Positions 4,046 to 50,184 of a DNA stretch of 50,290 bases are shown here, one piece after another. Under the pieces are notes generated by a model. The model was not told where the DNA came from, ran no database searches, and saw only the letters and a program-made list of their open reading frames with translations. The stretch is taken from the sequence record OK272485.1; one strand, written 5' to 3'. A program made the translations under genes and the position numbers. The DNA is from Escherichia phage JLBYU07. Numbering within the stretch: position 1 is the stretch's first letter; each line of letters begins with the position of its first letter.

Positions 4046-4771
4046 ATGGCTAAAGATATTTTAGATAAAGACACCCATGACGCATTCGTTAGCTTTGAGC
4101 AGTTGGAGAGAGAAACATTTATAGGGAATGCCCTTGCAACTGGAGGCCATTACCAGGCAGTAAAGCCAAATCAATATTATAAGGTAAGCGGCAACCGATA
4201 CGCTGGAAGCACTACGCCGGACGTTGTGCGCGATATGTGGAGCACACCTCAAGAGATCGTGGAGTGGATGGAATCAGAATTTGGCGAATACGATCTCGAC
4301 GCGGCAGCAAGCCAGGAAAACGCAGTTTGCGAGAAGTTCTATAGCAAGGAAACAAACTGCTTAAAGCGTTGGTGGGGTAGCAACAAGCACGTATGGCTTA
4401 ACCCGCCGTACAGCAACCCAACTCCATTTATCAAGAAAGCAATTGAGCAAATGGAGCACAACAACCAAATTGATGTTTTGTTGCCATCCGACAACTCTAC
4501 AGCATGGTTTTATGAGGCGCAGAAAAACGCGGCTGAAATCATCTGGATCACTGGCGAGGTTTACGAAGAGGGGGGAGTGGAATATTCCAGCACCGGAAGA
4601 ATCGCCTTTGTGTCTGGATTGACTGGCGAGCCTGTACAGGGCAACAATAAGGGGAGCGTGATTTTTGTCATGCGTAAACTTAAAGAAGGCGAAGAGCAGA
4701 AAACGCGATACGTTAAGATCAGCGATATTTGTCCTTCTGTTACCGAACGCCGAGCACGCAAACGGAGTTAA
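4046..4771 (+). CDS. dam: DNA N6-adenine methyltransferase (phage Dam family)
   Basis: 241 aa; catalytic NPPY motif (WLNPPYSNP), FxxYDLDAAAS SAM-binding region; GGAG RBS. Confidence 0.8.
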   Translation: MAKDILDKDTHDAFVSFEQLERETFIGNALATGGHYQAVKPNQYYKVSGNRYAGSTTPDVVRDMWSTPQEIVEWMESEFGEYDLDAAASQENAVCEKFYSKETNCLKRWWGSNKHVWLNPPYSNPTPFIKKAIEQMEHNNQIDVLLPSDNSTAWFYEAQKNAAEIIWITGEVYEEGGVEYSSTGRIAFVSGLTGEPVQGNNKGSVIFVMRKLKEGEEQKTRYVKISDICPSVTERRARKRS

Positions 4772-6855: not shown

Positions 6856-7071
6856 ATGAAAGATTTTATTAACGCAGCTACCGCCGGATCTGGCGGTTCA
6901 TCTATCGCAAGCGCCGCTACAGGGCAGTTAACCATTGCTATTGCCAGTTTTGTTTTAATGGCTGCATTCGGTGCGTGGGGCGCTTACCTTCGCTGGCGTG
7001 ATAGTAAAAAATTCCACGAGGCGATCGAAAAAGGTGATATTCAAAAAGCTATTGAGATCAGGGGCAAGTAA
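6856..7071 (+). CDS. holin (single-TMD, pinholin-like)
   Basis: 71 aa; one hydrophobic helix [19 protein letters not shown], charged C-terminus; directly precedes endolysin. Confidence 0.6.
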
Positions 7072-7562
7072 TGAGCATAAAGAACATGGTAGCGGCGGCG
7101 GCCTTTGGCGTTGCGGTTGCCTTGACTTCTCCACTTCTTGAAGAGATCGAAGGGGTAAGATACAAGCCATACAAAGATATTGCGGGAGTATGGACGGTTT
7201 GCGCAGGAATCACCGGACCCGATGTTATCCTGGGGAAAACGTACACTAAAAAAGAGTGTGATGCTTTGTTGGCTAAGCATATCCAGGTTGCTAAAAAGGA
7301 AGTTGACAAGCAAGTTAAGGTTTACATTCCTGATAGTATGCGTGCAGCAATGTACTCATTCACTTACAATGCAGGTGTGGGAGCTTTCAGAAATTCAACA
7401 ATGCTGAAACTCATCAACCAGGGGAAATTAAACGAGGCTTGCGATCAGCTTTATCGTTGGGCTTATTACCATAACCCAAAAACAGGAAAGCGAGAGAAGT
7501 CTAAAGGCTTGCTTAACAGGCGCAAGGTCGAATACAAATATTGCACAATGGATCTTAAATGA
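7071..7562 (+). CDS. SAR endolysin (T4-lysozyme-like muramidase)
   Basis: 163 aa; N-terminal signal-anchor-release helix [14 protein letters not shown]; catalytic E-x8-D-x5-T ([19 protein letters not shown]). Confidence 0.75.
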
Positions 7563-7954
7563 TGAAGAAATTTTTACTTACACCAATCGCAATGGCGGTG
7601 ATCTTGTCTGGATGTTCAAGCGTTACGCCACTGACCGGATTAATCGGCAGTAAGCCGGAAATCACAGCGCAGGCTGGCGCGGAGAACGTGAAGCAGACAG
7701 TTGGCATTACAGCAAGGCAGGACGCCAGCACAAAACAGGAAACCACAATAAAGGAATCTGCGGTTGACAAGGTGGACACGTCCAGCAAGAAGGATTTCAC
7801 AACATCAACCATTCAGGCCAATACCATCAAGGCAGACAAAATTCAGGTCGTGCAGGGTAATAACGGCAGATGGTACGATCCAGTAATCATATGCGTGGTT
7901 GTGTTTCTTGTGCTGATTTGTCTTTACTGGATAGAAAAGAAAAAGGAGGCTTAA
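7559..7954 (+). CDS. unimolecular spanin (T1 gp11-type)
   Basis: 131 aa; lipobox LSGC after signal peptide plus C-terminal [20 protein letters not shown]; ATGA overlap with endolysin. Confidence 0.7.
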
Positions 7955-11089: not shown

Positions 11090-11110
11090 CTTTTAACAAA
11101 AAGTGCTATT
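11090..11110 (-). promoter_or_regulatory. conserved intergenic box copy (minus orientation)
   Basis: TAG is stop of MTase-like gene; followed by hairpin GCCAGGTGTAAAAACCTGGC and ATAATC. Confidence 0.65.
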
Positions 11111-11816
11111 TTGAATTTGACTCAAAGACGGCGCGAGCAAATCCGCGCGGAGTGAGGGAGCGTAGTTGCTTTGTTCTGGCAGACTTACCGCCTAAAAACT
11201 TCCAACCCCAAAAGAACATTACGCCATCATCATTGGATAACGGCTTGCGTTCCGGTTCGGTAAATCCGTTGCCGCACCAGATAGCCGTCCTTTTAGTGTA
11301 GCCATCCTTTAGCGGCATTTTGGGGTGAAATGACCCATCGGATTCGTCCAAGTAGTTACCAAAATCGCGCGGATTGAAATAAAAATCCGGCTTGCGCCAT
11401 AGCGTTGATAGTCGGCCTACCGGATTCTCAGCCATCCAGGGAACACCGAAATGATTTCCGACTTTTTCAACCATGATTGCATTTTGGAGCGCGATATGAA
11501 TATCGTCTTCGCTGCGCACATGCTTACTTCCTGATTGGGCGAACATGGTGCAGTCTGGAAAGCCAAATACAATATCAGGTTTTGGAATATCCATCTTAAT
11601 GATGTTTTCAATGAAATTTTCATCAATCCACATATTCACATAATGCAGATTTTCATGCTTCATTTTGATGAAATATTCTCCGTGATTGCCTTCGTCAGCG
11701 TTAAAGCAATAGCATTGATAACCAGCCTTCGCATATTCAAGCAACATGATTCCAGATCCATCAAACATTGAGTAAGCAACTTTATTTCCCATGATTTTTA
11801 TGATACCCCAATTCAT
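11106..11816 (-). CDS. compact C5-cytosine methyltransferase-like protein
   Basis: about 236 aa (start ambiguous 11792/11816/11852); motif I FDGSG, motif IV-like GFPDCTMFAQSG, motif VI ENP, motif VIII-like KRTAIWC; minimal TRD, no clear motif X; stop TAG in box. Confidence 0.45.
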   Translation of the reverse strand: MNWGIIKIMGNKVAYSMFDGSGIMLLEYAKAGYQCYCFNADEGNHGEYFIKMKHENLHYVNMWIDENFIENIIKMDIPKPDIVFGFPDCTMFAQSGSKHVRSEDDIHIALQNAIMVEKVGNHFGVPWMAENPVGRLSTLWRKPDFYFNPRDFGNYLDESDGSFHPKMPLKDGYTKRTAIWCGNGFTEPERKPLSNDDGVMFFWGWKFLGGKSARTKQLRSLTPRGFARAVFESNSK

Positions 11817-12309
11817 TCTCGGCTTTACGTTTTGCGGCAACAGCATCTCCAAAACTGGAGAAACAACCTATATAAATCCTACTTCCTCGCTTTCCGCTTC
11901 CAACCCTTACAATCCACTTGCCATGTTTATTTTTATGCACGCCTGGTATGCCACTTGTATTGTTTTTCTGCTTTGATGTGTTTCGCATATTTCCTTTGTG
12001 ATCTTTTAACTCAAAGTTTATTGCTCTGTTATCAGTCGTAATGTGATTTACGTGATCAACCTCCATTCCTTCCGGTATAGGCCCATAGTGCATTTCATAG
12101 CATATTCTATGAACTTTCAGGTTATAACGTTTTCCGTTTACAGTAAGTGCGGTTTCTAAATATCTGCCACCACTACCCAAAGAGCCAACCTCATTACCAG
12201 CATTACAAGCATTCCATTGTTTAACTCTTGATTGGTGAATATCTTTTCTTTCTTTCCAGAACAGCTTTCCGGTTTCTGGATTGTATGTAAAGTAATCGTG
12301 CCAATTCAT
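11782..12309 (-). CDS. HNH homing endonuclease (with AP2-like DNA-binding domain)
   Basis: 175 aa; HNH core EVDHVNHITTDNR; C-terminal GIPGVHKNKHGKWIVRV...YIGCFSSFGDAVAAKRKAE; GAGGT RBS. Confidence 0.8.
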   Translation of the reverse strand: MNWHDYFTYNPETGKLFWKERKDIHQSRVKQWNACNAGNEVGSLGSGGRYLETALTVNGKRYNLKVHRICYEMHYGPIPEGMEVDHVNHITTDNRAINFELKDHKGNMRNTSKQKNNTSGIPGVHKNKHGKWIVRVGSGKRGSRIYIGCFSSFGDAVAAKRKAENELGYHKNHGK

Positions 12310-12317
12310 TCATTACC

Positions 12318-12542
12318 TCAAAACGGAAAACAGCGCGCACAACCAGGATCGAAATCGCATCCACAATCATTAACAATCATAGTGGGATCTGCAAATATTG
12401 CGCTTGATTCAAGATCCATATCCATATCACCTAAAGCCTCATCAAGAGTCTTAATTTTATATGCCACTTCAAGCGCCGCCTCTTTATTTAGTCCGGCATC
12501 TTCTGCCATTTGAAGGCGCTCAAAAAATCCGTCTTGACTCAT
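12318..12542 (-). CDS. hypothetical acidic protein
   Basis: 74 aa; acidic, Cys cluster at C-terminus. Confidence 0.45.
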   Translation of the reverse strand: MSQDGFFERLQMAEDAGLNKEAALEVAYKIKTLDEALGDMDMDLESSAIFADPTMIVNDCGCDFDPGCARCFPF

Positions 12543-13246: not shown

Positions 13247-13527
13247 TATGCGATCCCAGTTACGTTAAAACTTACAGCCTTTGTTGCGCTAAATACATAA
13301 GCATCAACAGCGCCGCCAAATACACGAATTTTACCCTGGCCGTACTGCGCATTCATATTTCGCCAAACCGTTCTATTAGAGCAGAATGCGCTACCAGTCT
13401 TAATAAGCGTATCCATCTCTTTTCTTAGATCGCGATAGTCCAGCCAGAATCTAAAGGCACGCTGTTTAATTCGCGCCGCCTTGATTTTTTCTCTTGCGCT
13501 ATTGAAATCATTCTTTTCGTATGCCAT
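13246..13527 (-). CDS. hypothetical protein
   Basis: 93 aa; TAATG coupling. Confidence 0.5.
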   Translation of the reverse strand: MAYEKNDFNSAREKIKAARIKQRAFRFWLDYRDLRKEMDTLIKTGSAFCSNRTVWRNMNAQYGQGKIRVFGGAVDAYVFSATKAVSFNVTGIA

Positions 13528-13724
13528 TAAATGATCTCCATGTATGTTTCAAAGCCATTTAACTTGAACAGTCCGTTTTCACATTTGCGCACGTTCCAAG
13601 TTAGCCCTGAGTGGTACGCCTCCATATCATCAAGGTCAATGGTGATTTCAGCACCTTTCTTAAACAAACCTTTTTCGTGAGACTTGTCGCGCTTAACAAC
13701 TTTAACATCAACCTGATTTTCCAT
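13527..13724 (-). CDS. hypothetical protein
   Basis: 65 aa from ATG 13724 with GAGGA RBS (track start 13775 non-ATG). Confidence 0.5.
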   Translation of the reverse strand: MENQVDVKVVKRDKSHEKGLFKKGAEITIDLDDMEAYHSGLTWNVRKCENGLFKLNGFETYMEII

Positions 13725-19220: not shown

Positions 19221-19811
19221 ATGAAACGAGACATTATCATCCTTAATGGGCCGCCAGGTTGCGGGAAGGACACTATTGCAGCTTACCTAACGGGCCATCG
19301 TTACCCTGCCGTCAAGGCGTCATTCAAACAGCCGATGTTCGATATTGCTTTTTCTATGCTGGGCGTGTACCGATACGATGAATTTATGGACCTGTACAAC
19401 GACCGAGAGCAAAAAGAAAAGCCTCAAGTTATCTTGGGCGGCAAGTCACCTCGACAATTCATGATCTGGATTAGCGAGGATGTAATGAAGCCAGTTTTTG
19501 GGGATCACTATTTCGGGCGTCGAATGGTTGAAGAGATTCACGAGATGTACCGAGATTTGGCGGTTGTGATCAGTGATGGCGGATTCCCCGAAGAAATAAA
19601 GCCGCTGGTTAAGGCAGGGCATGAAGTGCATATTTGCCGATTGCATCGCGACGGCTTCACGTTTGCTGGCGATTCGAGAGACTATATTGACCTGAGCGGT
19701 TATCACTATCGAATCCATCACTATGACTTCCAATTGCAGGACGGCAAGCCGGAACTGGCTGTAAACGAGATCGTCAATGCTGTCAAATGGAAACACACGC
19801 AGATTAAATAG
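19221..19811 (+). CDS. P-loop nucleotide/nucleoside kinase-like protein
   Basis: 196 aa; Walker A ILNGPPGCGKDT at N-terminus; stop TAG in variant box. Confidence 0.5.
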   Translation: MKRDIIILNGPPGCGKDTIAAYLTGHRYPAVKASFKQPMFDIAFSMLGVYRYDEFMDLYNDREQKEKPQVILGGKSPRQFMIWISEDVMKPVFGDHYFGRRMVEEIHEMYRDLAVVISDGGFPEEIKPLVKAGHEVHICRLHRDGFTFAGDSRDYIDLSGYHYRIHHYDFQLQDGKPELAVNEIVNAVKWKHTQIK

Positions 19812-20811: not shown

Positions 20812-21105
20812 ATGGCAAACAAAACTTACCGCAAACTACTGGTTAACGCTTTTGAAAACATCGCGCAGTGTAACAAGTGGAACGACTCTAAACACTCGCC
20901 AGTCACAATGAAGCGGGCCGGATTCAAAAATGCTCGTTCATGGGCGCGAGCTTTCGCAGCTTGCTATATTCCGGATGGTGGACTAGGAGCGATGAACGAT
21001 TTTTTGATCAACATGATAGAGGAAGCGGCGCGAGAGGATCGACCGCTGACACAGCGAGATTTTGACGACTTCGCGCGCGATGAGCTTTACTATCTGAGCC
21101 AATAG
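20812..21105 (+). CDS. hypothetical protein
   Basis: 97 aa; stop TAG in conserved box. Confidence 0.5.
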   Translation: MANKTYRKLLVNAFENIAQCNKWNDSKHSPVTMKRAGFKNARSWARAFAACYIPDGGLGAMNDFLINMIEEAAREDRPLTQRDFDDFARDELYYLSQ

Positions 21106-21121
21106 CACTTTTTGTTAAAAC
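21101..21121 (+). promoter_or_regulatory. conserved intergenic box AATAGCACTTTTTGTTAAAAC
   Basis: exact copy; TAG is stop of gene 20812-21105; followed by hairpin GGGCATTTGGTAAAGTGCCC. Confidence 0.65.
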
Positions 21122-21177
21122 TTCCGCAAGGGCATTTGGTAAAGTGCCCTTATTGAAGCGAAACAGAGGAAAGCGCA

Positions 21178-21390
21178 ATGAAAATCAAAATTACCAAAAT
21201 CGACACTATCAACGGCGACGGATCAATCACTCTTGAGCAATGTGGCTTGGTTGTTGGTGATGTGCTGGAAGTTGACGGACATTTCAGCGACGGATCTTAT
21301 TGTGTTATTGCGCCGCGCAACAGCGAGTTTATCAAGGCTGGCGACAATATTAGTGTTAACCATGACGAATGCGAGGTAGTAGAAGAATGA
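21178..21390 (+). CDS. hypothetical acidic protein
   Basis: 70 aa; GAGGA RBS; acidic. Confidence 0.5.
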   Translation: MKIKITKIDTINGDGSITLEQCGLVVGDVLEVDGHFSDGSYCVIAPRNSEFIKAGDNISVNHDECEVVEE

Positions 21391-21650
21391 TCACGATTAA
21401 CCTGTCAGAGCAGCAAGCGCGCATTATGTTAGCGGCCTTTGGCTGGCGAGATGATGACGGCATCCAGGCAACGGTTAAAATTCCTGAGCCAGTGGCGCGT
21501 GAAGTTTTCAGCCAGCTAGAACACGCATTTGATCCTGCTGGGACTGAGCAAGCGGAAACTGCCGCATGGTTCGGAGAGAACGGATACAGAGATCAGCAAG
21601 TCGAAAACTGGAAGCGCATAAACGAGACTATGGAGGAATCAGGTTTATGA
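21387..21650 (+). CDS. hypothetical acidic protein
   Basis: 87 aa from ATG 21387 (ATGA overlap). Confidence 0.5.
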   Translation: MITINLSEQQARIMLAAFGWRDDDGIQATVKIPEPVAREVFSQLEHAFDPAGTEQAETAAWFGENGYRDQQVENWKRINETMEESGL

Positions 21651-21961
21651 TTTATATTCACTACTACCAAATCGGAACTAACGAGAACAAAAAAGAGCAT
21701 CGTTTCATCCACGATGATTTGGACAAGGCAAAGGTACAGCAACAGGTTTTAGGCGGCGTCATTCAGGCTTTTGAGCCTGTAGAAGATATTGAGTACCGCG
21801 AGCATTTAAAAGATGTTGTTATTGATGAGATCTCTTGCTTGATTGATGATATGACAAATCACGGCCCTGGTTCCCCGTGGGAAGATTCAGGATCTGTAAC
21901 GTGGGATAAGGCCAAAGTTAAGACGCTAAACAACTTTCGAGAGATTCTCGACGGTTTTTAA
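21647..21961 (+). CDS. hypothetical protein
   Basis: 104 aa from ATG 21647 (ATGA overlap). Confidence 0.5.
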   Translation: MIYIHYYQIGTNENKKEHRFIHDDLDKAKVQQQVLGGVIQAFEPVEDIEYREHLKDVVIDEISCLIDDMTNHGPGSPWEDSGSVTWDKAKVKTLNNFREILDGF

Positions 21962-22031
21962 TTAAAAACGCATAGCCGTTAGAGCGCCTAAATCGCATTC
22001 TAACGAGCTATTTTTCTGGTAAGGTGATTTA

Positions 22032-22160
22032 ATGGATGAGTACAAACAACCCTCGCAATGGTGCAAAGAGAAGCAGGAGGAAGCACTTGAGCGCGGAGAT
22101 GTAGAAGAAGCTATGAACTATTTCAAACTTGCGGAAGAATGGAAGGGGAGAGGATACTGA
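22032..22160 (+). CDS. hypothetical small protein
   Basis: 42 aa, below track threshold; AGGTGA RBS; stop overlaps next ATG. Confidence 0.4.
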   Translation: MDEYKQPSQWCKEKQEEALERGDVEEAMNYFKLAEEWKGRGY

Positions 22161-22390
22161 TGTTCGGCATGAACGAGGCGCAATTCAACGCAGCTAAACG
22201 CCAGGCTAAAAAGTGCGGCGAGGCAATGAAAGCGGATGTGGAAAAGCGCGGGAAGTATGTTGATGAAGTAATGAAGGGCATCATTGCAGAACACTACCAG
22301 CCAATCGCGCCAATGTTGACGATCACTCAATTCATTTGGCTATGTGGTTACTTGCGAGGACGTTGGGGGAACGCTTTCGACAGGGAATGA
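22160..22390 (+). CDS. hypothetical protein
   Basis: 76 aa from ATG 22160 with GGAGAGGA RBS. Confidence 0.5.
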   Translation: MFGMNEAQFNAAKRQAKKCGEAMKADVEKRGKYVDEVMKGIIAEHYQPIAPMLTITQFIWLCGYLRGRWGNAFDRE

Positions 22391-22553
22391 TTGACAACTC
22401 TTTCCTGATTGGTTAGCATGGCGTCGTTTACATAAGAGCGGCTTAGTCCGAACGCGTGACGCGATAGTCACACAACAACGGCGATATGCAGGAGGTTTTT
22501 GCAACGCAAAATAATCCATAAGACGTATCGCCTTTTTTTAATGGAGATCCAAA

Positions 22554-22787
22554 ATGATTAAATACAAATTAACCGTTTCTTTCCGTGATACCGTTATTCA
22601 TCCTTTCTACAATAGCTTTGTTAACAGCTTTACAGTAGAAGCGACAGAGGATCAGCTTGACGGTGACGAAACTTGCATTTCTATCGGCAATGTTGCTTAT
22701 CCGATTCACAACATTACCAGCATTAAGCGTGAGGTTGTCGCTGATGAATTACAAAGTGAAGATGACGATCAGGCGAATGGGGCGTAA
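22554..22787 (+). CDS. hypothetical acidic protein
   Basis: 77 aa; GGAG RBS; acidic C-terminus. Confidence 0.5.
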   Translation: MIKYKLTVSFRDTVIHPFYNSFVNSFTVEATEDQLDGDETCISIGNVAYPIHNITSIKREVVADELQSEDDDQANGA

Positions 22788-22929
22788 TTGCCAATCATGC
22801 AAACAGGAATATGAATGCGTAGTTGATGCTCTTGATGAACTGGAAGCAGTAGCAAAAGCAAAAGAGCAATCGGGCGCTAATCCTGAAACACATCAATTTT
22901 CAATTAATCTTGTGAGGGCTTTACAATGA
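22762..22929 (+). CDS. hypothetical small Cys-rich protein
   Basis: about 55 aa; start ambiguous (22762 or 22777), weak RBS; CQSCKQEYEC. Confidence 0.3.
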   Translation: MTIRRMGRNCQSCKQEYECVVDALDELEAVAKAKEQSGANPETHQFSINLVRALQ

Positions 22930-23150
22930 TCGCATTATCTTTCTGCATTGGTTTTATTATGGCTATCATTATCTTTTCCGTTGTCATGCGCTTTGCTTAT
23001 AAGTTCGTGATTAATAAAGGTTGGTACGCTTCTGCAATCTGGAGCGAAAAACAAAAGAAATGGCTTATCCGTGGTCAATACCTTATGATCGGCAGCAAGA
23101 TCCTAAATTCCATTCGAGCCAAAGATGGAAAAGTAAAATATACAGCTTAA
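22926..23150 (+). CDS. membrane protein (N-terminal TMD)
   Basis: 74 aa; hydrophobic N-terminus FCIGFIMAIIIFSVV; ATGA overlap. Confidence 0.5.
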   Translation: MIALSFCIGFIMAIIIFSVVMRFAYKFVINKGWYASAIWSEKQKKWLIRGQYLMIGSKILNSIRAKDGKVKYTA

Positions 23151-23156
23151 AAATTA

Positions 23157-23180
23157 CCCGCCGCACGGCGGGTTTTTTAT
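23157..23180 (+). terminator. rho-independent terminator
   Basis: hairpin CCCGCCGCACGGCGGG followed by T6. Confidence 0.65.
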
Positions 23181-29920: not shown

Positions 29921-29945
29921 CTAATAGCATAAAAAAACATTGCAC

Positions 29946-29964
29946 GTTTAACAAAAAGTGCTAT
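29946..29964 (-). promoter_or_regulatory. conserved intergenic box copy (antisense within late operon)
   Basis: GTTTAACAAAAAGTGCTAT immediately before terminator and capsid gene RBS. Confidence 0.55.
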
Positions 29965-33696: not shown

Positions 33697-33716
33697 CTTT
33701 TAACAAAAAGTGCTAT
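33697..33716 (-). promoter_or_regulatory. conserved intergenic box copy (antisense within late operon)
   Basis: CTTTTAACAAAAAGTGCTAT directly abuts AAGGAG RBS of G chaperone gene. Confidence 0.6.
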
Positions 33717-39650: not shown

Positions 39651-42600
39651 ATGGCTAAATATATGATAAGCGGCAGTAAGGGCGGAAGCAAAAAGCCATA
39701 CGTGCCAAAAGAGATGGAAGATAACCTGATCTCGATAAACAAGATTAAAGTTTTGCTGGCTGTATCTGATGGCGAGTGCGATCCAGATTTCACGTTGCGT
39801 GATCTTTATCTTGATGATGTTCCTGTTATTGCCAGCGATGGCACTGTTAACTATGAGGGTGTAACGGCTGAATATAGGCCAGGCACACAGACGCAAGATT
39901 ACATCCAAGGGTTTACTGACACATCAAGCGAGGTGACAGTTTCGCGAGATATTACAACAGACAATCCCTATATTATCTCTGTGACAAACAAAAATCTTTC
40001 TGCAATCAGAATCAAGATTCTGATGCCAGTTGGCATGAAGCAGGAGGATAACGGCGATCTTGTTGGCGTAAGGGTTCAATATGCCGTAGATATGGCTGTT
40101 GATGGCGGTTCTTATAACGAGGTTATGAGAGATGTAATTGACGGCAAGACGAGATCAGGATATGACCGCAGCAGAAGGATTGATCTTCCTAAGTTTGAGG
40201 AGCGCGTTTTAATCAGAGTCAAGCGACTGACTCCAGACAGCACACCTTCAAAGGTGACTGATAAAATCAAACTGCAAAGTTACGCTGAGGTTGTGGATGC
40301 AAAATTCCGTTATCCTCTGACTGGACTTGTATTCGTAGAATTTGACAGCGAATTGTTTCCTACGCAAATCCCTAACATTTCTATAAAAAAGAAATGGAAG
40401 ATTATTAATGTTCCAAGCAACTATGATCCAATATCAAGAAAATATCACGGGTCATGGGATGGGACTTTTAAAAAAGCGTGGTCAAATAATCCTGCTTGGG
40501 TTCTTTATGATCTGGTAACGAATCAGCGTTATGGGCTTGACCAGCGAGAGTTAGGAATACAGATCGACAAGTGGAGCTTATACGAGGCTGGCGTTTACTG
40601 TGATCAGAAAGTTCCAGACGGTAAGGGCGGTACAGAGCCTCGCTACCTATGCGATGTAGTTATCCAGAATCAGGTTGAGGCTTATCAGCTAATCCGTGAC
40701 ATTTGCTCAATCTTTCGCGGAATGAGCTTTTGGAATGGTGAGAGTTTATCAATCGTGATTGATAAGCCGCGCGATCCATCATACGTGTTTACTAATGAAA
40801 ACGTCATCAACGGTGATTTTCAGTACACAACCGCAAGCGAAAAAAGCATGTACACGCAGTGTAACGTGACGTTTGACGACGAACAAAACATGTATCAGCA
40901 GGACGTAGAGGGGGTTTTTGATACTGAGGCTGCATTACGATTTGGATACAATCCAACAAGCATTACAGCGATCGGGTGCACACGCAGGAGCGAAGCGAAT
41001 CGTCGCGGTAGGTGGGTTTTGAAAACAAACCTTAGAAGCACTACTGTAAACTTTGCTACCGGACTAGAGGGGATGATTCCATCAATAGGTGATGTGATTG
41101 CTATCGCTGATAATTTTCAGAGCAGCAACCTAACGTTAAACCTATCGGGCCGAGTGATGGAAGTTTCAGGATTGCAGGTTTTCGTTCCGTTTAAGGTTGA
41201 TGCTCGTCCTGGTGATTTTATTATCATCAACAAGCCGGACGGCAAGCCAGTTAAGCGCACGATCTCAAAGGTTAGCGCAGACGGAAAAACCATTGAGTTA
41301 AATATTGGATTTGGTTTTGATGTTAAGCCTGACACTGTTTTTGCGATTGACCGTACTGACCTTGCGTTGCAGCAATACGTTGTGACAACTATCAGCAAGG
41401 GTGATGACGAAAACGAGTTTACCTATTCAATCACGGCTGTAGAGTACGATCCGAACAAATACGACGAGATTGATTATGGCGTAAACATTGATGACAGACC
41501 AACTTCAATTGTTCAGCCTGACGTGATGGTAGCGCCGGAGAACGTGCAGATCTCATCTTATTCTCGCGTCGTGCAGGGCGTTAGCGTTGAGACTATGGTT
41601 GTTTCATGGGATAAGGTTCCTTACGCATCTCTTTATGAAATGCAGTGGCGAAAAGGTGATGGCAACTGGCTGAATACGCCGCAGACAGCTAACAAAGAGA
41701 TAGAGGTAGAAGGAATTTATTCAGGGAACTATCAAGTAAGGGTTAGATCTGTTTCTGCAAGCGGTAACACCTCCCCGTGGTCAAAGATTGCAACCGCCAC
41801 CCTGACAGGTAAAGTTGGCGAGCCAGGAGCGCCGATTAATCTTACAGCTTCTGATAATGAAGTTTTTGGCATTCGTGTCAAATGGGGTATGCCGGAAGGA
41901 TCAGGCGATACGGCTTACATTGAGCTTCACCAATCTCCAGACGGAACGGTTGAAAACTCAAGCCTGCTTACGCTGATTCCATATCCTCAATATGAGTATT
42001 GGCATAGCACGTTACCAGCGGGTCAAGTTGTATGGTATAGAATCCGTAGCGTTGACAGGATCGGCAACGTTTCCGGCTGGACTGACTTTGTTCGTGGCAT
42101 GGCGTCAGATGATGTTGAATCTGTTTTAGGCGACATTCTGGACAAGATTTTTGATACCGAAGCGGGTCAAGAAATCAAAGAGAACGCCATAGACAGTGCC
42201 AACAAAATCAAAGACCAAGCGCAATCAATCATCCAGAACGCATTAGCAAACGATGCTGATGTGAAGTGGACGCGAGTACAAAACGGAAAGCGTAAGGCTG
42301 AATATGGTCATGCTCTTGAGCTTATCGCCAACGAAACTGAGGCGCGCGTAACTCAAATCGAAGAGTTAAGGGCGTCAATTGATGAAGATATAGTTTCAAG
42401 TATCAAAACCGTTCAGGAAGCGATTGCCAACGAATCAGAGACGCGAGCTACTCAAGTTCAGCAGCTTGATTCTAAATTTACGAAGGAAATAGACGGCGTA
42501 AAACGAGATACGGCTGCAAGTATTGGTGAGGTAAGGCAAACCATTACCAATGAATCAGAAGCGCGCGCTCAGGCCGTTCAGCAGCTTGACGCTAAGTTCA

Positions 42601-43229
42601 CGAAAGAGATAAACGACCTTGACGGAGTTATCAAAACAGAAGTCGAGGCTAACATCTCAGAAGTGAAACAGGCGATCGCCAATGAGACAGAGGCAAGGGT
42701 TCAGGCTGACCAGGCTTTAACAGCTAAATTCGGAGACGTTGAATCAGCACTAGCAGAAAAACTTGATTCGTGGGCTAACGTTGATTCGGTTGGCGCTAAG
42801 TACGCTATGAAATTGGGCCTTACTTACAATGGGCAGAAGTACAGCGCAGGAATGGTAATGCAGCTATCGCAATCGTCGCAGGGGTTGATCTCACAAATCC
42901 TTTTCGATGCTAACCGATTTGCAATTATGACCAGTTCGTCAGGTGGCGTTTACACATTGCCGTTTGTAGTAGAAAATAACCAGGTTTTTATCAACAGTTT
43001 GTTGGTGAAAAACGGGTCCATTACTAACGCAATGATTGGCAACGTTATTCAGTCAAATAACTTTGTTCAGAATCAGCAAGGATGGAGGCTTGATAAAAAT
43101 GGTAACTTTGAGAACTACGGAACTAGAGCGGGAGAAGGAGCTACAAAATTCACTAACGAAGGCTTAAAGGTGAAAGATGCAAATGGACGATTGAGAGTTG
43201 AGATAGGGAGAATAACCGGAAGTTGGTAA
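39651..43229 (+). CDS. tail tip host-specificity protein (lambda J-like central fibre)
   Basis: 1192 aa from ATG 39651; size and position after I; four ~35-aa tandem repeats IANE[ST]E[AT]R...Q[QE]L near C-terminus. Confidence 0.85.
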   Translation: MAKYMISGSKGGSKKPYVPKEMEDNLISINKIKVLLAVSDGECDPDFTLRDLYLDDVPVIASDGTVNYEGVTAEYRPGTQTQDYIQGFTDTSSEVTVSRDITTDNPYIISVTNKNLSAIRIKILMPVGMKQEDNGDLVGVRVQYAVDMAVDGGSYNEVMRDVIDGKTRSGYDRSRRIDLPKFEERVLIRVKRLTPDSTPSKVTDKIKLQSYAEVVDAKFRYPLTGLVFVEFDSELFPTQIPNISIKKKWKIINVPSNYDPISRKYHGSWDGTFKKAWSNNPAWVLYDLVTNQRYGLDQRELGIQIDKWSLYEAGVYCDQKVPDGKGGTEPRYLCDVVIQNQVEAYQLIRDICSIFRGMSFWNGESLSIVIDKPRDPSYVFTNENVINGDFQYTTASEKSMYTQCNVTFDDEQNMYQQDVEGVFDTEAALRFGYNPTSITAIGCTRRSEANRRGRWVLKTNLRSTTVNFATGLEGMIPSIGDVIAIADNFQSSNLTLNLSGRVMEVSGLQVFVPFKVDARPGDFIIINKPDGKPVKRTISKVSADGKTIELNIGFGFDVKPDTVFAIDRTDLALQQYVVTTISKGDDENEFTYSITAVEYDPNKYDEIDYGVNIDDRPTSIVQPDVMVAPENVQISSYSRVVQGVSVETMVVSWDKVPYASLYEMQWRKGDGNWLNTPQTANKEIEVEGIYSGNYQVRVRSVSASGNTSPWSKIATATLTGKVGEPGAPINLTASDNEVFGIRVKWGMPEGSGDTAYIELHQSPDGTVENSSLLTLIPYPQYEYWHSTLPAGQVVWYRIRSVDRIGNVSGWTDFVRGMASDDVESVLGDILDKIFDTEAGQEIKENAIDSANKIKDQAQSIIQNALANDADVKWTRVQNGKRKAEYGHALELIANETEARVTQIEELRASIDEDIVSSIKTVQEAIANESETRATQVQQLDSKFTKEIDGVKRDTAASIGEVRQTITNESEARAQAVQQLDAKFTKEINDLDGVIKTEVEANISEVKQAIANETEARVQADQALTAKFGDVESALAEKLDSWANVDSVGAKYAMKLGLTYNGQKYSAGMVMQLSQSSQGLISQILFDANRFAIMTSSSGGVYTLPFVVENNQVFINSLLVKNGSITNAMIGNVIQSNNFVQNQQGWRLDKNGNFENYGTRAGEGATKFTNEGLKVKDANGRLRVEIGRITGSW
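42324..42780 (+). repeat. four tandem ~105-bp coding repeats in J C-terminal region
   Basis: repeated GCCAA[CT]GA[AG]... units encoding IANETEARVTQ / IANESETRATQ / ITNESEARAQA / IANETEARVQA. Confidence 0.7.
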
Positions 43230-47944: not shown

Positions 47945-48223
47945 TTAAGCCCATTCTCTAATCGGCTGATCTAACTCAACCACGTAGCCGTTAAAAATTA
48001 CGGCATCAAACTTATCATCAATGATTCGCACATTGACGAAATAGCCGTCGTTCTTTCGCGCAATCTCATCGCCATCGTCAGATCGTGCAATTACTGTGTA
48101 AGTATTGCCGATTACATCGAGCAGGATTGCATCCTGAATGGATTCGTTTTCGTTCCATTCAATTTCTTCCAGAAAGGCGGAAAACTCCGCCTTGTCTACA
48201 AATTTCAGTGTTAAATCACGCAT
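47945..48223 (-). CDS. hypothetical protein (tail-fibre operon)
   Basis: 92 aa from ATG 48223 overlapping tail-fibre stop (TAATG). Confidence 0.5.
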   Translation of the reverse strand: MRDLTLKFVDKAEFSAFLEEIEWNENESIQDAILLDVIGNTYTVIARSDDGDEIARKNDGYFVNVRIIDDKFDAVIFNGYVVELDQPIREWA

Positions 48224-50184
48224 TATACAATTTCCCCCAATTGATGATCTGTTAGTGCCTTGTGCCATATACGGAAGTTTCTAACGTGCCCGAAAAGATG
48301 ACGTTCTCCCGTAGTTGTTTGTCCGCCAATCCTTATAGTAGCCGTTGATACTATATATCTCCATTCCGTTTTTGTTTCGCTTGATATTCTGGCATTACTT
48401 ACACAGCAATTTTTGTAATCACTCTTTACTCTCATTCCCATGATCATCTTTTTTAGTTTTGCATTCTCGTAAACCCTTCTGTTTGATCCACCTATATCGC
48501 AATAATGGAATCCATCATTATCGCCCTCGGCAGACCCGAAAGCAAGAATAATTGCCGCACCATATTGATGACCACCAGTATCGAAAACGCGAGGCGCAGC
48601 ATTTGGTGTTCTACTCCAGTTTTTATGAGCCTCCACAAGAATTGTAAACGGCAAATTGTAAAGGTTGTTTTTTATTGGCACTGTAACCATATCGCTTGCC
48701 CTTGTAGTCGGTGACGGACCTGATTGAATATAAGAAGAAGCACAAGACCCCAATTCAACTTGAGGGGTTGACAATTCAATATAATCCCCATCTGAATAAG
48801 CAGACACTGGAGATATTTGAAACTGAGCGTTTACCTTATTTTCTATTGCCTTGAATGTAACAATGGCAATATTCCATCCTGTAACATCATCCGTGTAAAC
48901 CTCAACATTAATTCTGTTTGCAGCACCCCCAGTTTTCTGGACTGAAAGATCCTTAAGTTTTATGTAAACACCTCCAGCGAATGCGATACTCCCAATATCA
49001 GCGCCAGCGGCAAATCTTACCCTCAATCTAACATCTTTATCTGATCTAAATCTGCATGAAGCAGTAACATTTTTTTCATTGCCAGATGTATCAAGGCTGT
49101 GAGCAGAAATAACAGATGCAAGGTTTAGCGCATCTGTTCCGCCAACATTAGACTGATCTGGAGCGAAGCGACCATAAAGAAATCCAAATGAATCTGTATT
49201 CGCTGTCACTTGCACAGAAGCTGAGCAACCCCAACCAGCAGGAGTTGAAGCATTAATCATATGGTTTGTTCTCTGCCCTTCAATCAGCAATCCATCTCTT
49301 TCAAAACGTGGTTCATCAATTGCTGCAACTGTAAAAACACCTGATTTGTTAATGTAAGTAGCGGTTGATGCTCGTTTAAACTTAACTATCTTGTCACCTG
49401 GCATCGTGATCTCATCGTCACCTATAACAATCTTTTTGTATGACGGCGAGAATCCGGTAATCATATCCAGGGAGTCATTAAATGGTATCCACACGTCCGG
49501 CAACGGTTGCAATAAGTCCTTGTAAGGTTCTGCGGCCTGATTTGCGTATTCCTCCGCTTGATCTCGCGCACTTTCAGCTCCTGCCTTTGCAGTGTTCGCA
49601 GCGTCACGCGCGGATTCAGCGCCTTTTCTTGCAGTTTCAGCGCCAGTCTTTGCAGTGTTTGCAGCGTCGCGCGCGGATTCAGCGGCAGCCTTTGCAGTGT
49701 CAGCACCTTTCTTGCTATTCTCTGCATTTGTTGCGCTTGTCTTTGCGTTATTCTCGCTAGTTTTAGCTGCCTTCTGACTTGCTGCGGCTGCGTCAGCATT
49801 TGTCTTTACGTCTTCCTGGATCTTCTGTAGCTTATCCCAATCAAAATCCTTGATGATCTCAATAAATCCAGCAAGCTCCGACTCCTTTCCCTGGTAATAA
49901 CGCAACGTTTCCGCTACGTCTTGCGCAAGACCATCAACCGTTAACGAGTCATGAAGCAAGATCAGGTAATTTGTCTTCTTGACTACCGCGCCGCCAGTAG
50001 TAATTGCGCGAATGCTTGTATCGCTAATCACTTCTGTAATCACAGCAGCTTGCAAAGGTTGAGCAAGAAAGAAAATAGTTGCGCCTGGGCGAATCAAGGT
50101 TAATTGCTCACGCCATTTTGTACCGTAACCAGTTACATAACCTTGCGCGTCCATAGACGCTTGGCCTTGTCTGTAAATCGCCAT
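48223..50184 (-). CDS. side tail fibre protein
   Basis: 653 aa from ATG 50184 (AGGAGG RBS); Ala/Lys/Ser-rich AxxSA repeats (AESARDAANTAKTGAETARKGAESARDAANTAKAGAESARD), Gly/Ser/Thr-rich distal domain. Confidence 0.75.
   Translation of the reverse strand: MAIYRQGQASMDAQGYVTGYGTKWREQLTLIRPGATIFFLAQPLQAAVITEVISDTSIRAITTGGAVVKKTNYLILLHDSLTVDGLAQDVAETLRYYQGKESELAGFIEIIKDFDWDKLQKIQEDVKTNADAAAASQKAAKTSENNAKTSATNAENSKKGADTAKAAAESARDAANTAKTGAETARKGAESARDAANTAKAGAESARDQAEEYANQAAEPYKDLLQPLPDVWIPFNDSLDMITGFSPSYKKIVIGDDEITMPGDKIVKFKRASTATYINKSGVFTVAAIDEPRFERDGLLIEGQRTNHMINASTPAGWGCSASVQVTANTDSFGFLYGRFAPDQSNVGGTDALNLASVISAHSLDTSGNEKNVTASCRFRSDKDVRLRVRFAAGADIGSIAFAGGVYIKLKDLSVQKTGGAANRINVEVYTDDVTGWNIAIVTFKAIENKVNAQFQISPVSAYSDGDYIELSTPQVELGSCASSYIQSGPSPTTRASDMVTVPIKNNLYNLPFTILVEAHKNWSRTPNAAPRVFDTGGHQYGAAIILAFGSAEGDNDGFHYCDIGGSNRRVYENAKLKKMIMGMRVKSDYKNCCVSNARISSETKTEWRYIVSTATIRIGGQTTTGERHLFGHVRNFRIWHKALTDHQLGEIV
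49470..49800 (-). repeat. tandem coding repeats in tail-fibre gene
   Basis: repeated units TTTGCAGTGTT[CT]GCAGCGTC[AG]CGCGCGGATTCAGCG on the plus strand. Confidence 0.65.

What the first reader, a model, noticed from the sequence alone, without database searches (positions are those of the whole stretch)
21178..22787. Run of small acidic early proteins, candidate anti-defence (DNA-mimic-like) factors
Seen in sequence: several consecutive 70-105 aa proteins in the rightward early block are strongly acidic (21178-21390, 21387-21650, 22554-22787; also 12318-12542 on the minus strand). Established knowledge: early small acidic phage proteins such as Ocr and ArdA-like mimics often inhibit restriction or other defence systems. 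Inference only; no family was recognised.
Basis: inference. Interest (0 to 1): 0.4.

Follow-up and report, generated by a model that had tools for sequence, protein, structure and literature searches.

The report
Small acidic T1-like phage proteins
A T1-like coliphage carries a real cluster of small, moderately acidic proteins of unknown function upstream of its terminase genes; nothing links them to known DNA-mimic anti-restriction proteins, so they are ordinary uncharacterised phage accessory genes, with one side lead: a separate acidic protein whose tail resembles the SSB C-terminus.

Summary
The window is a Warwickvirus (Drexlerviridae, T1-like) phage about 98% identical to SECphi27, XY3 and tunus.

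**Observation.** It holds. ORFs at 21178-21390 (A), 21387-21650 (B), 22554-22787 (F) and 12318-12542(-) (M) are annotated CDSs in relatives and are under purifying selection. Each has pI 4.05-4.34 and net charge -9 to -11. C and D are also acidic, so five of six consecutive small genes are acidic in a mostly basic small-protein set.

**Interpretation.** There is no positive support for DNA mimicry.
- No match to Ocr, ArdA or any named family, although real Ocr scores 1e-64 as a control.
- Charge density is half that of Ocr.
- A folds confidently as an SH3-like beta-barrel. B (DUF7180) gave a poor model. F is a lineage-restricted orphan.
- BASEL phage Bas05 (carries these genes) and its genus-mate Bas04 (gene content not checked) are restricted wherever they have sites (EcoRI in Bas04, type III EcoCFT_II in both). 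They escape only enzymes for which they have almost no sites.
- The window lacks 26 of 64 hexamer palindromes and encodes Dam and Dcm, so its evident anti-restriction strategy is passive.

**Best reading.** These are accessory, promoter-proximal, protein-binding modulators of unknown target.

**Side lead.** The M family ends in a conserved [CY][FIM]P[FW] tip (DDDDYIPW in T1) that resembles the SSB tail DDDIPF.

Interest is low to moderate.

The parts
21102..21121 (+). Copy of the conserved phage promoter motif ATAGCACTTTTTGTTAAAAC, 57 nt upstream of gene A. A weak -10 (TAAAGT) lies at about 21140-21145.
   Evidence: 13 copies in the window against 0.01 expected. The architecture is motif, then 16-18 nt, then (C/T)ATAAT, then RBS. 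The motif is present upstream of the A-position gene in SECphi27, damhaus, Jahat and Bas05.
21178..21390 (+). Gene A: 70 aa, pI 4.34, net -9. SH3-like five-strand beta-barrel; phrog_5684.
   Evidence: AF2 pLDDT 89.3, pTM 0.72. Best PDB matches are SH3 domains at TM 0.5-0.58. BFVD matches are all uncharacterised phage proteins. Found in 412 phage records. dN=0 against four close relatives.
21387..21650 (+). Gene B: 87 aa, pI 4.34, net -9. Pfam DUF7180. Its start overlaps A's stop (ATGA).
   Evidence: Found in 323 phage records. The AF2 model has four helices but pLDDT 61 and is unreliable. No fold match.
21647..21961 (+). Gene C: 104 aa, pI 4.82, net -9. Its start overlaps B's stop. The N-terminal ~45 aa is a module also found at the N-terminus of a dATP/dGTP pyrophosphohydrolase protein in Klebsiella phage FZ10.
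22032..22160 (+). Gene D: 42 aa, pI 4.64, 26% D+E; phrog_1312.
22160..22390 (+). Gene E: 76 aa, basic (pI 9.0), phrog_303. It is the last gene of the A-E unit and the most conserved protein of the region: 99% identity to damhaus and Jahat, dN/dS 0.01-0.02.
22391..22539 (+). Conserved non-coding element between E and F. It has a sigma70-like promoter (TTGACA-17-TAGCAT, 22391-22419), a ~60-nt conserved stretch, and a hairpin at 22480-22532 followed by T7 at 22533-22539.
   Evidence: It is more conserved than gene F among genera, and Jahat carries a compensatory stem change (GGCGATA/TATCGCC to GGCGCTA/TAGCGCC). It is partly conserved in T1 and FZ10.
22554..22787 (+). Gene F: 77 aa, pI 4.24, net -9. 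From its sequence pattern it looks beta-rich, with an acidic tail ...SEDDDQANGA. Lineage-restricted orphan.
   Evidence: No PHROG, Pfam or NCBIfam family. Only 4 clusters at >=86% identity among 5.8 billion proteins. Exhaustive HMMER adds nothing credible. Found in 101 phage records, all Warwickvirus or Hanrivervirus type. dN/dS 0.1-0.3. Conserved core YPIHNI..KRE.
22777..22929 (+). Gene G: 50 aa, Cys-rich N-terminus, phrog_2919. It overlaps the end of F.
22926..23150 (+). Gene H: 74 aa, basic, hydrophobic N-terminus, Pfam DUF7299.
23156..23179 (+). Intrinsic terminator that closes the small-gene block ahead of the small terminase gene (23229).
   Evidence: It is annotated as a terminator in phage Sip and T1.
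12318..12542 (-). Gene M: 74 aa, pI 4.05, net -11, phrog_9323. It has a conserved N-terminal domain, an acidic linker with a CGC...C..C motif, and the C-terminal tip CFPF.
   Evidence: Found in 453 phage records. The C-terminal [CY][FIM]P[FW] tip is kept in 9 of 10 diverse homologues. The T1 homologue ST6 has net -17 and ends DDYIPW.

Best explanation
The region holds two small transcription units of phage-restricted accessory genes just upstream of the terminase genes.

**Unit 1 (A-B-C-D-E).** It starts at a copy of a conserved phage promoter motif (21102). A/B, B/C and D/E have overlapping stop and start codons. It ends at a conserved hairpin plus T-run (22480-22539).

**Unit 2 (F-G-H).** It ends at the terminator at 23156.

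**What the proteins are.** They are genuine small soluble proteins. A is an SH3-like beta-barrel, B is a helical DUF7180 protein, and F is a lineage-restricted protein that looks beta-rich and has an acidic tail.

**Most likely mechanism (inferred, not shown).** They act as stoichiometric protein-binding modulators made before the late genes. Their acidic surfaces or tails would dock on basic, probably nucleic-acid-binding, surfaces of host or phage proteins. This is host takeover or counter-defence in the broad sense. They are not members of the Ocr/ArdA DNA-mimic families and do not give general protection against restriction.

**How the phage visibly deals with restriction.** Its defence is passive: extreme depletion of restriction sites, plus its own Dam and Dcm methyltransferases.

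**The separate protein M.** M (12318-12542, minus strand) most plausibly works through its conserved C-terminal hydrophobic-Pro-aromatic tip. That tip resembles the SSB C-terminal peptide, so M may compete for, or recruit, SSB-interacting proteins.
For: **Shown.**
- The genes are real and under purifying selection.
- The acidic cluster is real.
- Promoter motif upstream of A, and terminators.
- A's fold.
- The families occur only in phage-sized contigs and Drexlerviridae records.
- Non-universal, mosaic distribution. Against about 705 records with TerL >=60% identical, A is in 412, B in 323, M in 453 and F in 101.
- At the A position, alleles are swapped. A is 89% identical to Klebsiella Webervirus FZ10, where TerL is 61% and MCP 56%. 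It is only 46% identical to the Hanrivervirus phage damhaus. It is replaced by unrelated proteins in Jahat and in T1 (ST61). All of these alleles are acidic, with net -8 to -14. So acidity at this position is selected even when the sequence is not.
- Passive RM evasion: 26 of 64 hexamer palindromes absent, EcoKI 0 against 5.5 expected, EcoRV 0 against 19, HindIII 0 against 25. GATC is not depleted and CCWGG is enriched, and Dam and Dcm genes are present.
- Bas04 and Bas05 efficiency of plating tracks site counts.
- M's tip is conserved. The phage's own SSB ends DFDDDIPF. DDDIPF is the canonical SSB-Ct interaction motif (PMC5872125).

**Inferred.** The binding-modulator mechanism, its targets and its timing.
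Against: - No target, interaction or phenotype is known for any of these proteins.
- Expression timing has not been measured.
- B and F have no reliable structure.
- A's very strong conservation (dN=0 among close relatives, 89% identity across genera) would also fit a conserved phage-internal role rather than an arms-race gene.
- The window's M copy lacks acidic residues directly before the tip (…GCARCFPF), unlike SSB (DDDIPF).
- The charge-clustering statistic depends on a threshold chosen after seeing the data.
Confidence: 0.45

Rival explanations
1. One or more of A, B, C or F is a dsDNA mimic that blocks type I restriction-modification or BREX, as Ocr and ArdA do.
For: - Small, acidic, promoter-proximal non-structural genes.
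- Acidity at the A position is kept across unrelated alleles.
- The type I assays on relatives are uninformative because those phages have 0-1 sites.
Against: - No homology to Ocr, ArdA or any other named family, with a working positive control.
- Half of Ocr's charge density.
- A is a 70-aa SH3-like barrel, not an elongated DNA-shaped fold.
- EcoKI, EcoBI and EcoAI sites are depleted (0 against 5.5, 2 against 9.1, 0 against 2.9). That depletion would not be maintained if type I enzymes were efficiently neutralised.
- The BASEL authors found most Drexlerviridae very sensitive to RM, in some cases including type I.
Confidence: 0.1
2. The proteins serve phage-internal functions, for example regulators or chaperones of replication, transcription timing or DNA packaging. 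Acidic proteins would pair with the many basic small proteins or with the terminase. They would not target the host.
For: - Position immediately upstream of terS/terL, with conserved synteny from T1 to Webervirus: NTPase, then the A position, then the B or C N-terminal module, then E, G, H and TerS.
- Very strong purifying selection on A and E.
- A conserved regulatory non-coding element sits inside the block.
Against: - None of A, B or F is universal in the family: about 58%, 46% and 14% of TerL-defined relatives.
- A is replaced by unrelated proteins in close relatives that have near-identical terminases. This is not typical of an essential internal partner.
Confidence: 0.2
3. M (12318-12542, minus strand) is a mimic of the SSB C-terminal tail. 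An acidic linker presents a terminal hydrophobic-Pro-aromatic peptide that occupies the SSB-Ct pocket of host genome-maintenance proteins, or recruits them to a phage partner bound by the N-terminal domain.
For: - The extreme C-terminus [CY][FIM]P[FW] is kept in 9 of 10 homologues that are otherwise only 46-96% identical and have unalignable linkers.
- Tunavirus forms end DDDDYIPW. T1 ST6 has 29% D+E and net -17.
- The phage SSB and the T1 SSB end DDDIPF.
- SSB-Ct is the known interaction hub (PMC5872125).
- The family is widespread in Drexlerviridae (453 records).
Against: - The resemblance rests on three to eight residues.
- In the window's copy the residues before the tip are ARC, not acidic, and a Cys motif (CGC..C..C) may instead make a metal-binding knuckle.
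- Trp replaces Phe in some members.
- No structure or interaction data exist.
- No precedent was found in the searched literature.
Confidence: 0.3
4. The ORFs are non-functional or chance reading frames whose acidity is a by-product of composition.
For: They are short and lack an assigned function. F has no family.
Against: - dN/dS of 0-0.4 with many synonymous changes.
- RBSs and coupled starts.
- Conservation in 101-453 phage genomes.
- A confident fold for A.
Confidence: 0.02

Closest known systems
T7 Ocr (gp0.3), Pfam PF08684 'DNA mimic ocr'
   Same: A small, acidic phage protein encoded near a promoter in a non-structural block.
   Different: No sequence match. Ocr is all-helical, dimeric, 29% D+E and net -28. 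Here the proteins have 18-22% D+E and net -9 to -11, and A is a beta-barrel. Bas05, which carries these genes, is restricted by type III RM, and its genus-mate Bas04 by type II and III RM. Type I could not be tested.
Small DNA mimics of 56-92 aa (PBS2 Ugi, phi29 p56, AcrIIA4, T4 Arn); own knowledge
   Different: No homology. Mimicry needs a DNA-like array of surface charges plus a suitable shape (PMC3902945), which could not be tested here. To my knowledge there is no SH3-barrel mimic.
Gp54 of phage Bas11 (66-aa beta-barrel, trigger of CapRelSJ46; PMC11578894)
   Same: A small, non-essential beta-barrel protein of a T1-like phage with unknown function. Its authors suggest it may inhibit another defence system.
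   Different: It is a different gene family. Its homologue lies in the leftward block of this window (about 13527-13724, minus strand). BLASTP finds no similarity between A and the Bas05 homologue.
DUF7244 standalone SH3 protein of the Drexlerviridae lysis module (PMC13164509)
   Same: A standalone SH3-like small protein in T1-like phages, belonging to the shell (non-core) genome.
   Different: That protein is always next to the holin-endolysin cassette and occurs in Tunavirinae, Braunvirinae and Rogunavirinae. A lies upstream of the terminase in a Tempevirinae phage and gave no Pfam DUF7244 match at E<=1.
SSB C-terminal peptide (DDDIPF) interaction hub
   Same: The M family ends in a conserved hydrophobic-Pro-aromatic C-terminus after an acidic stretch (DDDDYIPW in T1-type members).
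   Different: M has no OB fold and is not an SSB. The window's copy has Cys/Arg rather than Asp before the tip. Function is untested.

Membership tests
Ocr (PF08684) | Sequence match to the Ocr profile | tested here: not met
   No hit at E<=1 for A, B, C, D, F or M. T7 Ocr itself scores 1.3e-64 in the same library.
Ocr (PF08684) | Extreme acidity: 34 acidic and 6 basic residues in 116 aa (PMC3439906) | tested here: not met
   Ocr has 29% D+E and net -0.24 per residue. A, B, F and M have 18-22% D+E and net -0.10 to -0.15 per residue.
Ocr (PF08684) | All-alpha elongated dimer shaped like bent B-DNA | tested here: not met
   For A, the confident model is a five-strand beta-barrel. For B the test is inconclusive because pLDDT is 61. 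F was not modelled.
Ocr/ArdA-type anti-restriction | Protection from type I RM or BREX | not testable with these tools
   Published plating data for Bas04 and Bas05 are uninformative because those phages have 0-1 EcoKI or EcoCFT_I sites.
ArdA (PF07275) / ArdB-KlcA | Sequence match | tested here: not met
   No Pfam, PHROG or NCBIfam hit.
DNA mimic proteins in general | DNA-like arrangement of surface negative charges and a suitable conformation (PMC3902945) | not testable with these tools
   Model coordinates and electrostatics are not available. Only fold and composition could be assessed.
SH3-like small beta-barrel fold (protein A) | Five-strand barrel that superposes on SH3 domains | tested here: met
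   pLDDT 89.3. The top 50 PDB hits are nearly all SH3 domains, with TM 0.5-0.58 and probability 0.9-1.0. However, E is >=0.035 and there is no sequence-family match, so this is fold resemblance only.
Pfam DUF7180 (protein B) | Score above the gathering threshold | tested here: met
   105.2 bits against a cut-off of 27, E 2.9e-30, full length.
DUF7244 lysis-module SH3 of Drexlerviridae | Located between the DNA repair exonuclease and the holin; DUF7244 match | tested here: not met
   A lies 14 kb from the lysis cassette (6856-7954), directly upstream of the B-H genes and the terminase. No DUF7244 hit.
SSB-Ct-like tail (protein M) | Hydrophobic-Pro-aromatic residues at the extreme C-terminus | tested here: met
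   CFPF, CMPF, CIPFW or YIPW in 9 of 10 diverse homologues.
SSB-Ct-like tail (protein M) | Run of Asp directly preceding the tip (DDDIPF) | tested here: inconclusive
   Met in Tunavirus members (DDDDYIPW). Not met in the window's copy (GCARCFPF), where the acidic residues lie further upstream.
SSB-Ct-like tail (protein M) | Binding to SSB-Ct client proteins | not testable with these tools
   Needs biochemistry or complex prediction.

The most novel reading that the evidence does not exclude
The acidic small proteins are unrecognised inhibitors or decoys of host DNA-binding defence or repair proteins. The clearest case would be M, acting as a free-standing mimic of the SSB C-terminal tail that hijacks or blocks the host SSB interactome. 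The position-specific acidic protein that comes first after the promoter (A / T1 ST61 and its allelic replacements) would be a rapidly exchangeable counter-defence cassette.
Probability: 0.2. Interest if true: 0.6.

Novelty: new member of a known kind. Interest (0 to 1): 0.3.

Why it matters
If any of these proteins proved to be a counter-defence factor, it would give T1-like phages, which are widely used as test phages (SECphi27 and the BASEL phages Bas01-13), their first assigned anti-defence genes. It would also help explain the unexplained differences in defence sensitivity within the family. An SSB-tail mimic would be a new way for a phage to interfere with host genome-maintenance proteins.

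As it stands, the finding mainly documents ordinary uncharacterised accessory genes. It also shows that this phage's visible anti-restriction strategy is site avoidance plus methylation, not a mimic.

Tried and rejected
- **Sequence family searches.** Pfam, PHROGs, NCBIfam, PADLOC and PDB sequences gave only unknown-function families.
- **Exhaustive HMMER for F.** It found only its own cluster plus a weak hit to a 1023-aa repeat protein (P0073; fascin-like repeats and low-complexity matches), which I rejected as uninformative.
- **Structure of B.** pLDDT 61. Its PDB fold search gave only E>=3.9 hits and was discarded.
- **Structure of F.** Not predicted. Only two jobs were allowed, and F has just four near-identical homologues that the tool would accept.
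- **Rfam.** No family anywhere in the window.
- **Is A related to the CapRel trigger Gp54(Bas11)?** No similarity to the Bas05 homologue.
- **Is A the DUF7244 lysis-module SH3?** Different locus and family.
- **Positive selection.** All pairwise dN/dS values are below 0.4. Site-specific tests were not done.
- **Recent horizontal transfer as the reason for A's 89% identity to Klebsiella phages.** Rejected. Nucleotide identity is only 77%, so the cause is long-term purifying selection.
- **Literature.** No transcriptome of a T1-like phage, nothing on DUF7180 or DUF7299, nothing on the promoter motif, and no SSB-tail-mimicking phage protein in the searchable library.
Full report
**Identity of the window.** The 3 kb around the finding is 97-98.5% identical to Escherichia phages XY3, SECphi27, tunzivis, tunus and about 50 others. 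These are Drexlerviridae, subfamily Tempevirinae, genus Warwickvirus. The window is therefore a T1-like siphovirus genome. The finding lies in the rightward block of small genes (15.2-23.15 kb) that ends at a terminator just before the small and large terminase genes (23229, 23756).

**Gene calls.** Using the ORF list and the annotation of relatives, the region reads as follows:
- A 21178-21390 (70 aa)
- B 21387-21650 (87 aa)
- C 21647-21961 (104 aa)
- D 22032-22160 (42 aa)
- E 22160-22390 (76 aa)
- a 163-nt gap
- F 22554-22787 (77 aa)
- G 22777-22929 (50 aa)
- H 22926-23150 (74 aa, hydrophobic N-terminus)
- a terminator at 23156-23173

A/B and B/C overlap as ATGA and D/E as TGATG. A, C, D, E and F have clear Shine-Dalgarno sequences.

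**Check of the observation.** The charge values are:

| Protein | pI | D+E | Net charge |
|---|---|---|---|
| A | 4.34 | 20% | -9 |
| B | 4.34 | 18% | -9 |
| F | 4.24 | 18% | -9 |
| M | 4.05 | 22% | -11 |
| C | 4.82 | 19% | -9 |
| D | 4.64 | 26% | -4 |

The phage's small proteins are mostly basic, with a median pI of 7.8-8.9 depending on the gene list. Seven of 41 proteins of <=130 aa have net charge per residue <= -0.085, and five of them fall within the six consecutive genes A-F. A permutation test gives p of about 0.005, but I chose that threshold after seeing the data. With pI<5 as the criterion, p is 0.12.

The genes are real. Pairwise dN/dS against XY3, Sip, Bas05, SECphi27, Jahat and damhaus is 0-0.4 for every gene. 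For A there are 0 non-synonymous against 2-8 synonymous differences in the four close relatives.

'Strongly acidic' needs context. T7 Ocr, read from the T7 record, has 29% D+E and net -28 in 117 aa (PMC3439906 states 34 acidic and 6 basic side chains). That is twice the charge density seen here.

**Families and homologues.**
- PHROGs places A in phrog_5684, B in phrog_11097, C in phrog_11192, D in phrog_1312, E in phrog_303 and M in phrog_9323. All are 'unknown function'. F has no PHROG.
- Pfam gives DUF7180 for B (E 2.9e-30) and DUF7299 for H. It gives nothing significant for A, C, D, F or M.
- NCBIfam, PADLOC and PDB sequence searches give nothing.
- As a control, T7 Ocr scores 1.3e-64 against 'DNA mimic ocr' in the same Pfam search.
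- In 5.8 billion proteins, F has only four clusters at >=86% identity. An exhaustive HMMER scan adds only a spurious repeat-protein hit.
- A has 37 relatives at >=66% identity and B has 31. All sit on phage-sized contigs.
- In the phage genome collection, A is in 412 records (269 from Klebsiella), B in 323, M in 453 and F in 101. About 705 records have a large terminase >=60% identical. None of the four is universal in the family.

**Evolutionary pattern.** I compared the window gene by gene with other Drexlerviridae.
- A is 89% identical to the Klebsiella Webervirus FZ10 protein, although TerL is 61%, the major capsid protein 56%, the portal 52% and Dam 70%. Nucleotide identity there is 77%, so this is long-term constraint rather than recent transfer.
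- In Hanrivervirus damhaus (TerL 93%) the protein at the A position is only 46% identical.
- In Warwickvirus Jahat and in T1 the A position holds proteins with no detectable sequence similarity.
- All these positional alleles are acidic: damhaus_67 net -14, the Jahat 82-aa protein net -8, T1 ST61 net -14 with pI 4.05. Each is the first gene after the same promoter motif.
- B is 93% and 85% identical in damhaus and Jahat, 40% in T1 (ST60, which is not acidic) and absent from FZ10.
- F diverges faster than its neighbours: 91% in SECphi27 where neighbours are 96-100%, 69% in Jahat, 55% in damhaus. It keeps a core YPIHNI..KRE and a terminal GA.

Swapped alleles at fixed positions, narrow phage-only families and purifying selection are typical of accessory host-interaction genes. 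They do not identify a target.

**Transcription context.** A 20-nt motif, ATAGCACTTTTTGTTAAAAC, occurs 13 times in the window against 0.01 expected. Three weaker copies also exist. All are intergenic. After 16-18 nt, often containing an inverted repeat, comes (C/T)ATAAT, and then a ribosome-binding site. Copies precede the helicase, Dam, the leftward small-gene, helicase and Dcm operons, the polynucleotide kinase operon and gene A (21102). The terminase and structural genes use other signals. This places A-E with the replication and DNA-metabolism class of operons. It supports 'not late' but does not prove 'early'. No T1-like transcriptome was found.

Between E and F lies a conserved non-coding element. 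It has TTGACA-17-TAGCAT (22391-22419) and a hairpin at 22480-22532 followed by seven T. It is better conserved between genera than F itself and carries a compensatory stem change in Jahat. It is partly conserved in T1 and FZ10. It probably terminates the A-E unit, and it may form a short RNA or an attenuating leader for F-G-H.

**Test of the anti-restriction idea against published phenotypes.** BASEL phage Bas05 (PeterMerian) carries A-H at 96-100% identity and M at 96%. Bas04 (FritzSarasin) is a genus-mate, but I did not retrieve its genome, so its content of these genes is not shown. The BASEL authors report most Drexlerviridae as very sensitive to RM, with Bas04 and Bas05 unusually resistant. 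Their own tables explain this:
- Bas04 and Bas05 have 0 EcoKI, 0-1 EcoCFT_I and 0 EcoRV sites, and plate at about 1 on those hosts.
- Bas04, with 8 EcoRI half-sites, plates at about 0.008.
- Both drop to 1e-4 to 2e-3 on the type III system EcoCFT_II, for which they have 43-52 sites.

Resistance follows site number. No general anti-restriction activity is visible. Type I inhibition is simply untested.

The window shows the same strategy:
- 26 of 64 hexamer palindromes are absent.
- EcoKI is 0 against 5.5 expected, EcoBI 2 against 9.1, EcoAI 0 against 2.9, EcoRV 0 against 19 and HindIII 0 against 25.
- GATC is not depleted (302 against 300) and CCWGG is enriched (122 against 79).
- This matches the phage's Dam (4046-4771) and Dcm (11106-11852) genes.

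Depletion of type I sites argues weakly against an efficient type I inhibitor. EcoR124I sites are not depleted (9 against 11.8), which offers a natural experimental test.

**Protein M.** The T1 homologue ST6 is 69 aa, 29% D+E and net -17, which equals Ocr's charge density, and it ends EDVDDYIPW. I aligned ten diverse homologues. They share a conserved N-terminal ~45-aa domain, a variable acidic linker, and, in nine of ten, an extreme C-terminus [CY][FIM]P[FW]. The forms seen are CFPF, CMPF, CIPFW and YIPW.

The phage's own SSB and the T1 SSB end DFDDDIPF and FDDDIPF. DDDIPF is the canonical SSB C-terminal interaction peptide (PMC5872125). This suggests M presents an SSB-tail-like peptide. The window's copy has Cys and Arg rather than Asp before the tip, and a CGC..C..C motif, so the resemblance is partial. 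No precedent was found in the searched literature. This is a hypothesis resting on a short motif.

**Comparison with what is known.** The proteins are not members of the Ocr or ArdA families: sequence, composition and (for A) fold were tested and not met. They resemble small DNA mimics only in size and charge. Two other small barrels of T1-like phages are distinct from A. One is the CapRel trigger Gp54 of Bas11, whose homologue here lies at about 13527-13724 on the minus strand and shows no similarity to A. The other is the DUF7244 lysis-module SH3.

**Verdict.**
- The DNA-mimic or anti-restriction interpretation has no positive support and some evidence against it, but it cannot be excluded for type I RM or BREX.
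- The best-supported description is a set of ordinary, uncharacterised, accessory phage proteins made from a non-late promoter, probably acting by protein binding.
- The M family's SSB-like tip and the position-specific acidity at the A locus are the only features worth an experiment.
- Novelty: new members of a known kind (small phage accessory proteins). Interest: about 0.3.

Noticed in passing
window 1474, 3963, 5012, 16449, 18012, 21102 (+); 8274, 10435, 11109, 13799, 15104 (-); weaker copies at 19808 (+), 50202 (+), 44495 (-): A conserved 20-nt motif, ATAGCACTTTTTGTTAAAAC, has 13 copies against 0.01 expected. After 16-18 nt comes (C/T)ATAAT. This looks like a phage-specific sigma70-type promoter class that heads the non-structural operons. 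It is also present in T1 (9 copies), Klebsiella phage FZ10 (9) and Bas05 (12). No description was found in the searchable literature.
   Followed up: partly
window 29945-29964 (-) and 33697-33716 (-); T1 (L009) 15067 (-) and 18831 (-): Two copies of the promoter motif lie in reverse orientation inside the rightward late block. One is just upstream of the major capsid gene and the other just after the major tail gene. The same two positions carry reverse copies in T1, so they are conserved. They may be antisense promoters or regulator sites. Unexplained.
   Followed up: partly
window 22391-22539: A conserved non-coding element sits between genes E and F. It has a consensus-like promoter, then a conserved transcribed stretch, then a hairpin plus T7. 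Jahat has a compensatory base-pair change in the stem. The element is better conserved across genera than the flanking gene F. It could be a short RNA or a transcription attenuator. There is no Rfam match.
   Followed up: partly
whole window: Restriction sites are extremely depleted. 26 of 64 hexamer palindromes are absent (HindIII 0 against 25 expected, EcoRV 0 against 19, PvuII 0 against 16.5), and EcoKI, EcoBI and EcoAI sites are depleted. GATC is at expectation and CCWGG is enriched. This matches the phage-encoded Dam (4046-4771) and Dcm (11106-11852) methyltransferases.
   Followed up: yes
window 22160-22390 (gene E): This basic 76-aa protein (phrog_303, labelled 'ipe, inducer of pleiotropic effects' in phage XY3) is 99% identical in damhaus and Jahat, where the large terminase is 91-93%. 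Its dN/dS is 0.01-0.02. It is the most constrained protein of the block, and its function is unknown.
   Followed up: no
window 21178-21390 against L008 (Klebsiella phage FZ10) 6647-6859: Protein A is 89% identical between this E. coli phage and Klebsiella Webervirus phages. Every core protein is only 36-70% identical (TerL 61%, MCP 56%). Nucleotide identity is 77%, so the cause is unusually strong purifying selection rather than recent transfer.
   Followed up: partly
window 21647-21961 (gene C) against L008 6856-7431: The N-terminal ~45 aa of C (motif IGTNE..., phrog_3955) recurs as the N-terminal extension of a dATP/dGTP pyrophosphohydrolase (PF04447) protein that directly follows the A homologue in Klebsiella phage FZ10. 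It is a small module that keeps its place next to A in both genera.
   Followed up: no
window about 13527-13724 (-): This is the probable homologue of Gp54 of Bas11 (Gp57 of Bas05, Gp19 of SECphi27), the small beta-barrel protein that can trigger the CapRelSJ46 defence system (PMC11578894). It lies directly behind a motif promoter (13799).
   Followed up: partly
window 47945-48268 (-): A fifth strongly acidic small protein (107 aa, pI 4.19, net -11) lies between the lateral tail fibre gene and its putative chaperone. It is probably related to tail fibres and not part of the cluster.
   Followed up: no
window 42418-42630 and 49568-49693: There are in-frame tandem or near-tandem repeats inside the J-like tail tip gene (93 nt, two copies 120 nt apart, 71% identical) and inside the lateral tail fibre gene (63 nt twice, 81% identical).
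   Followed up: no
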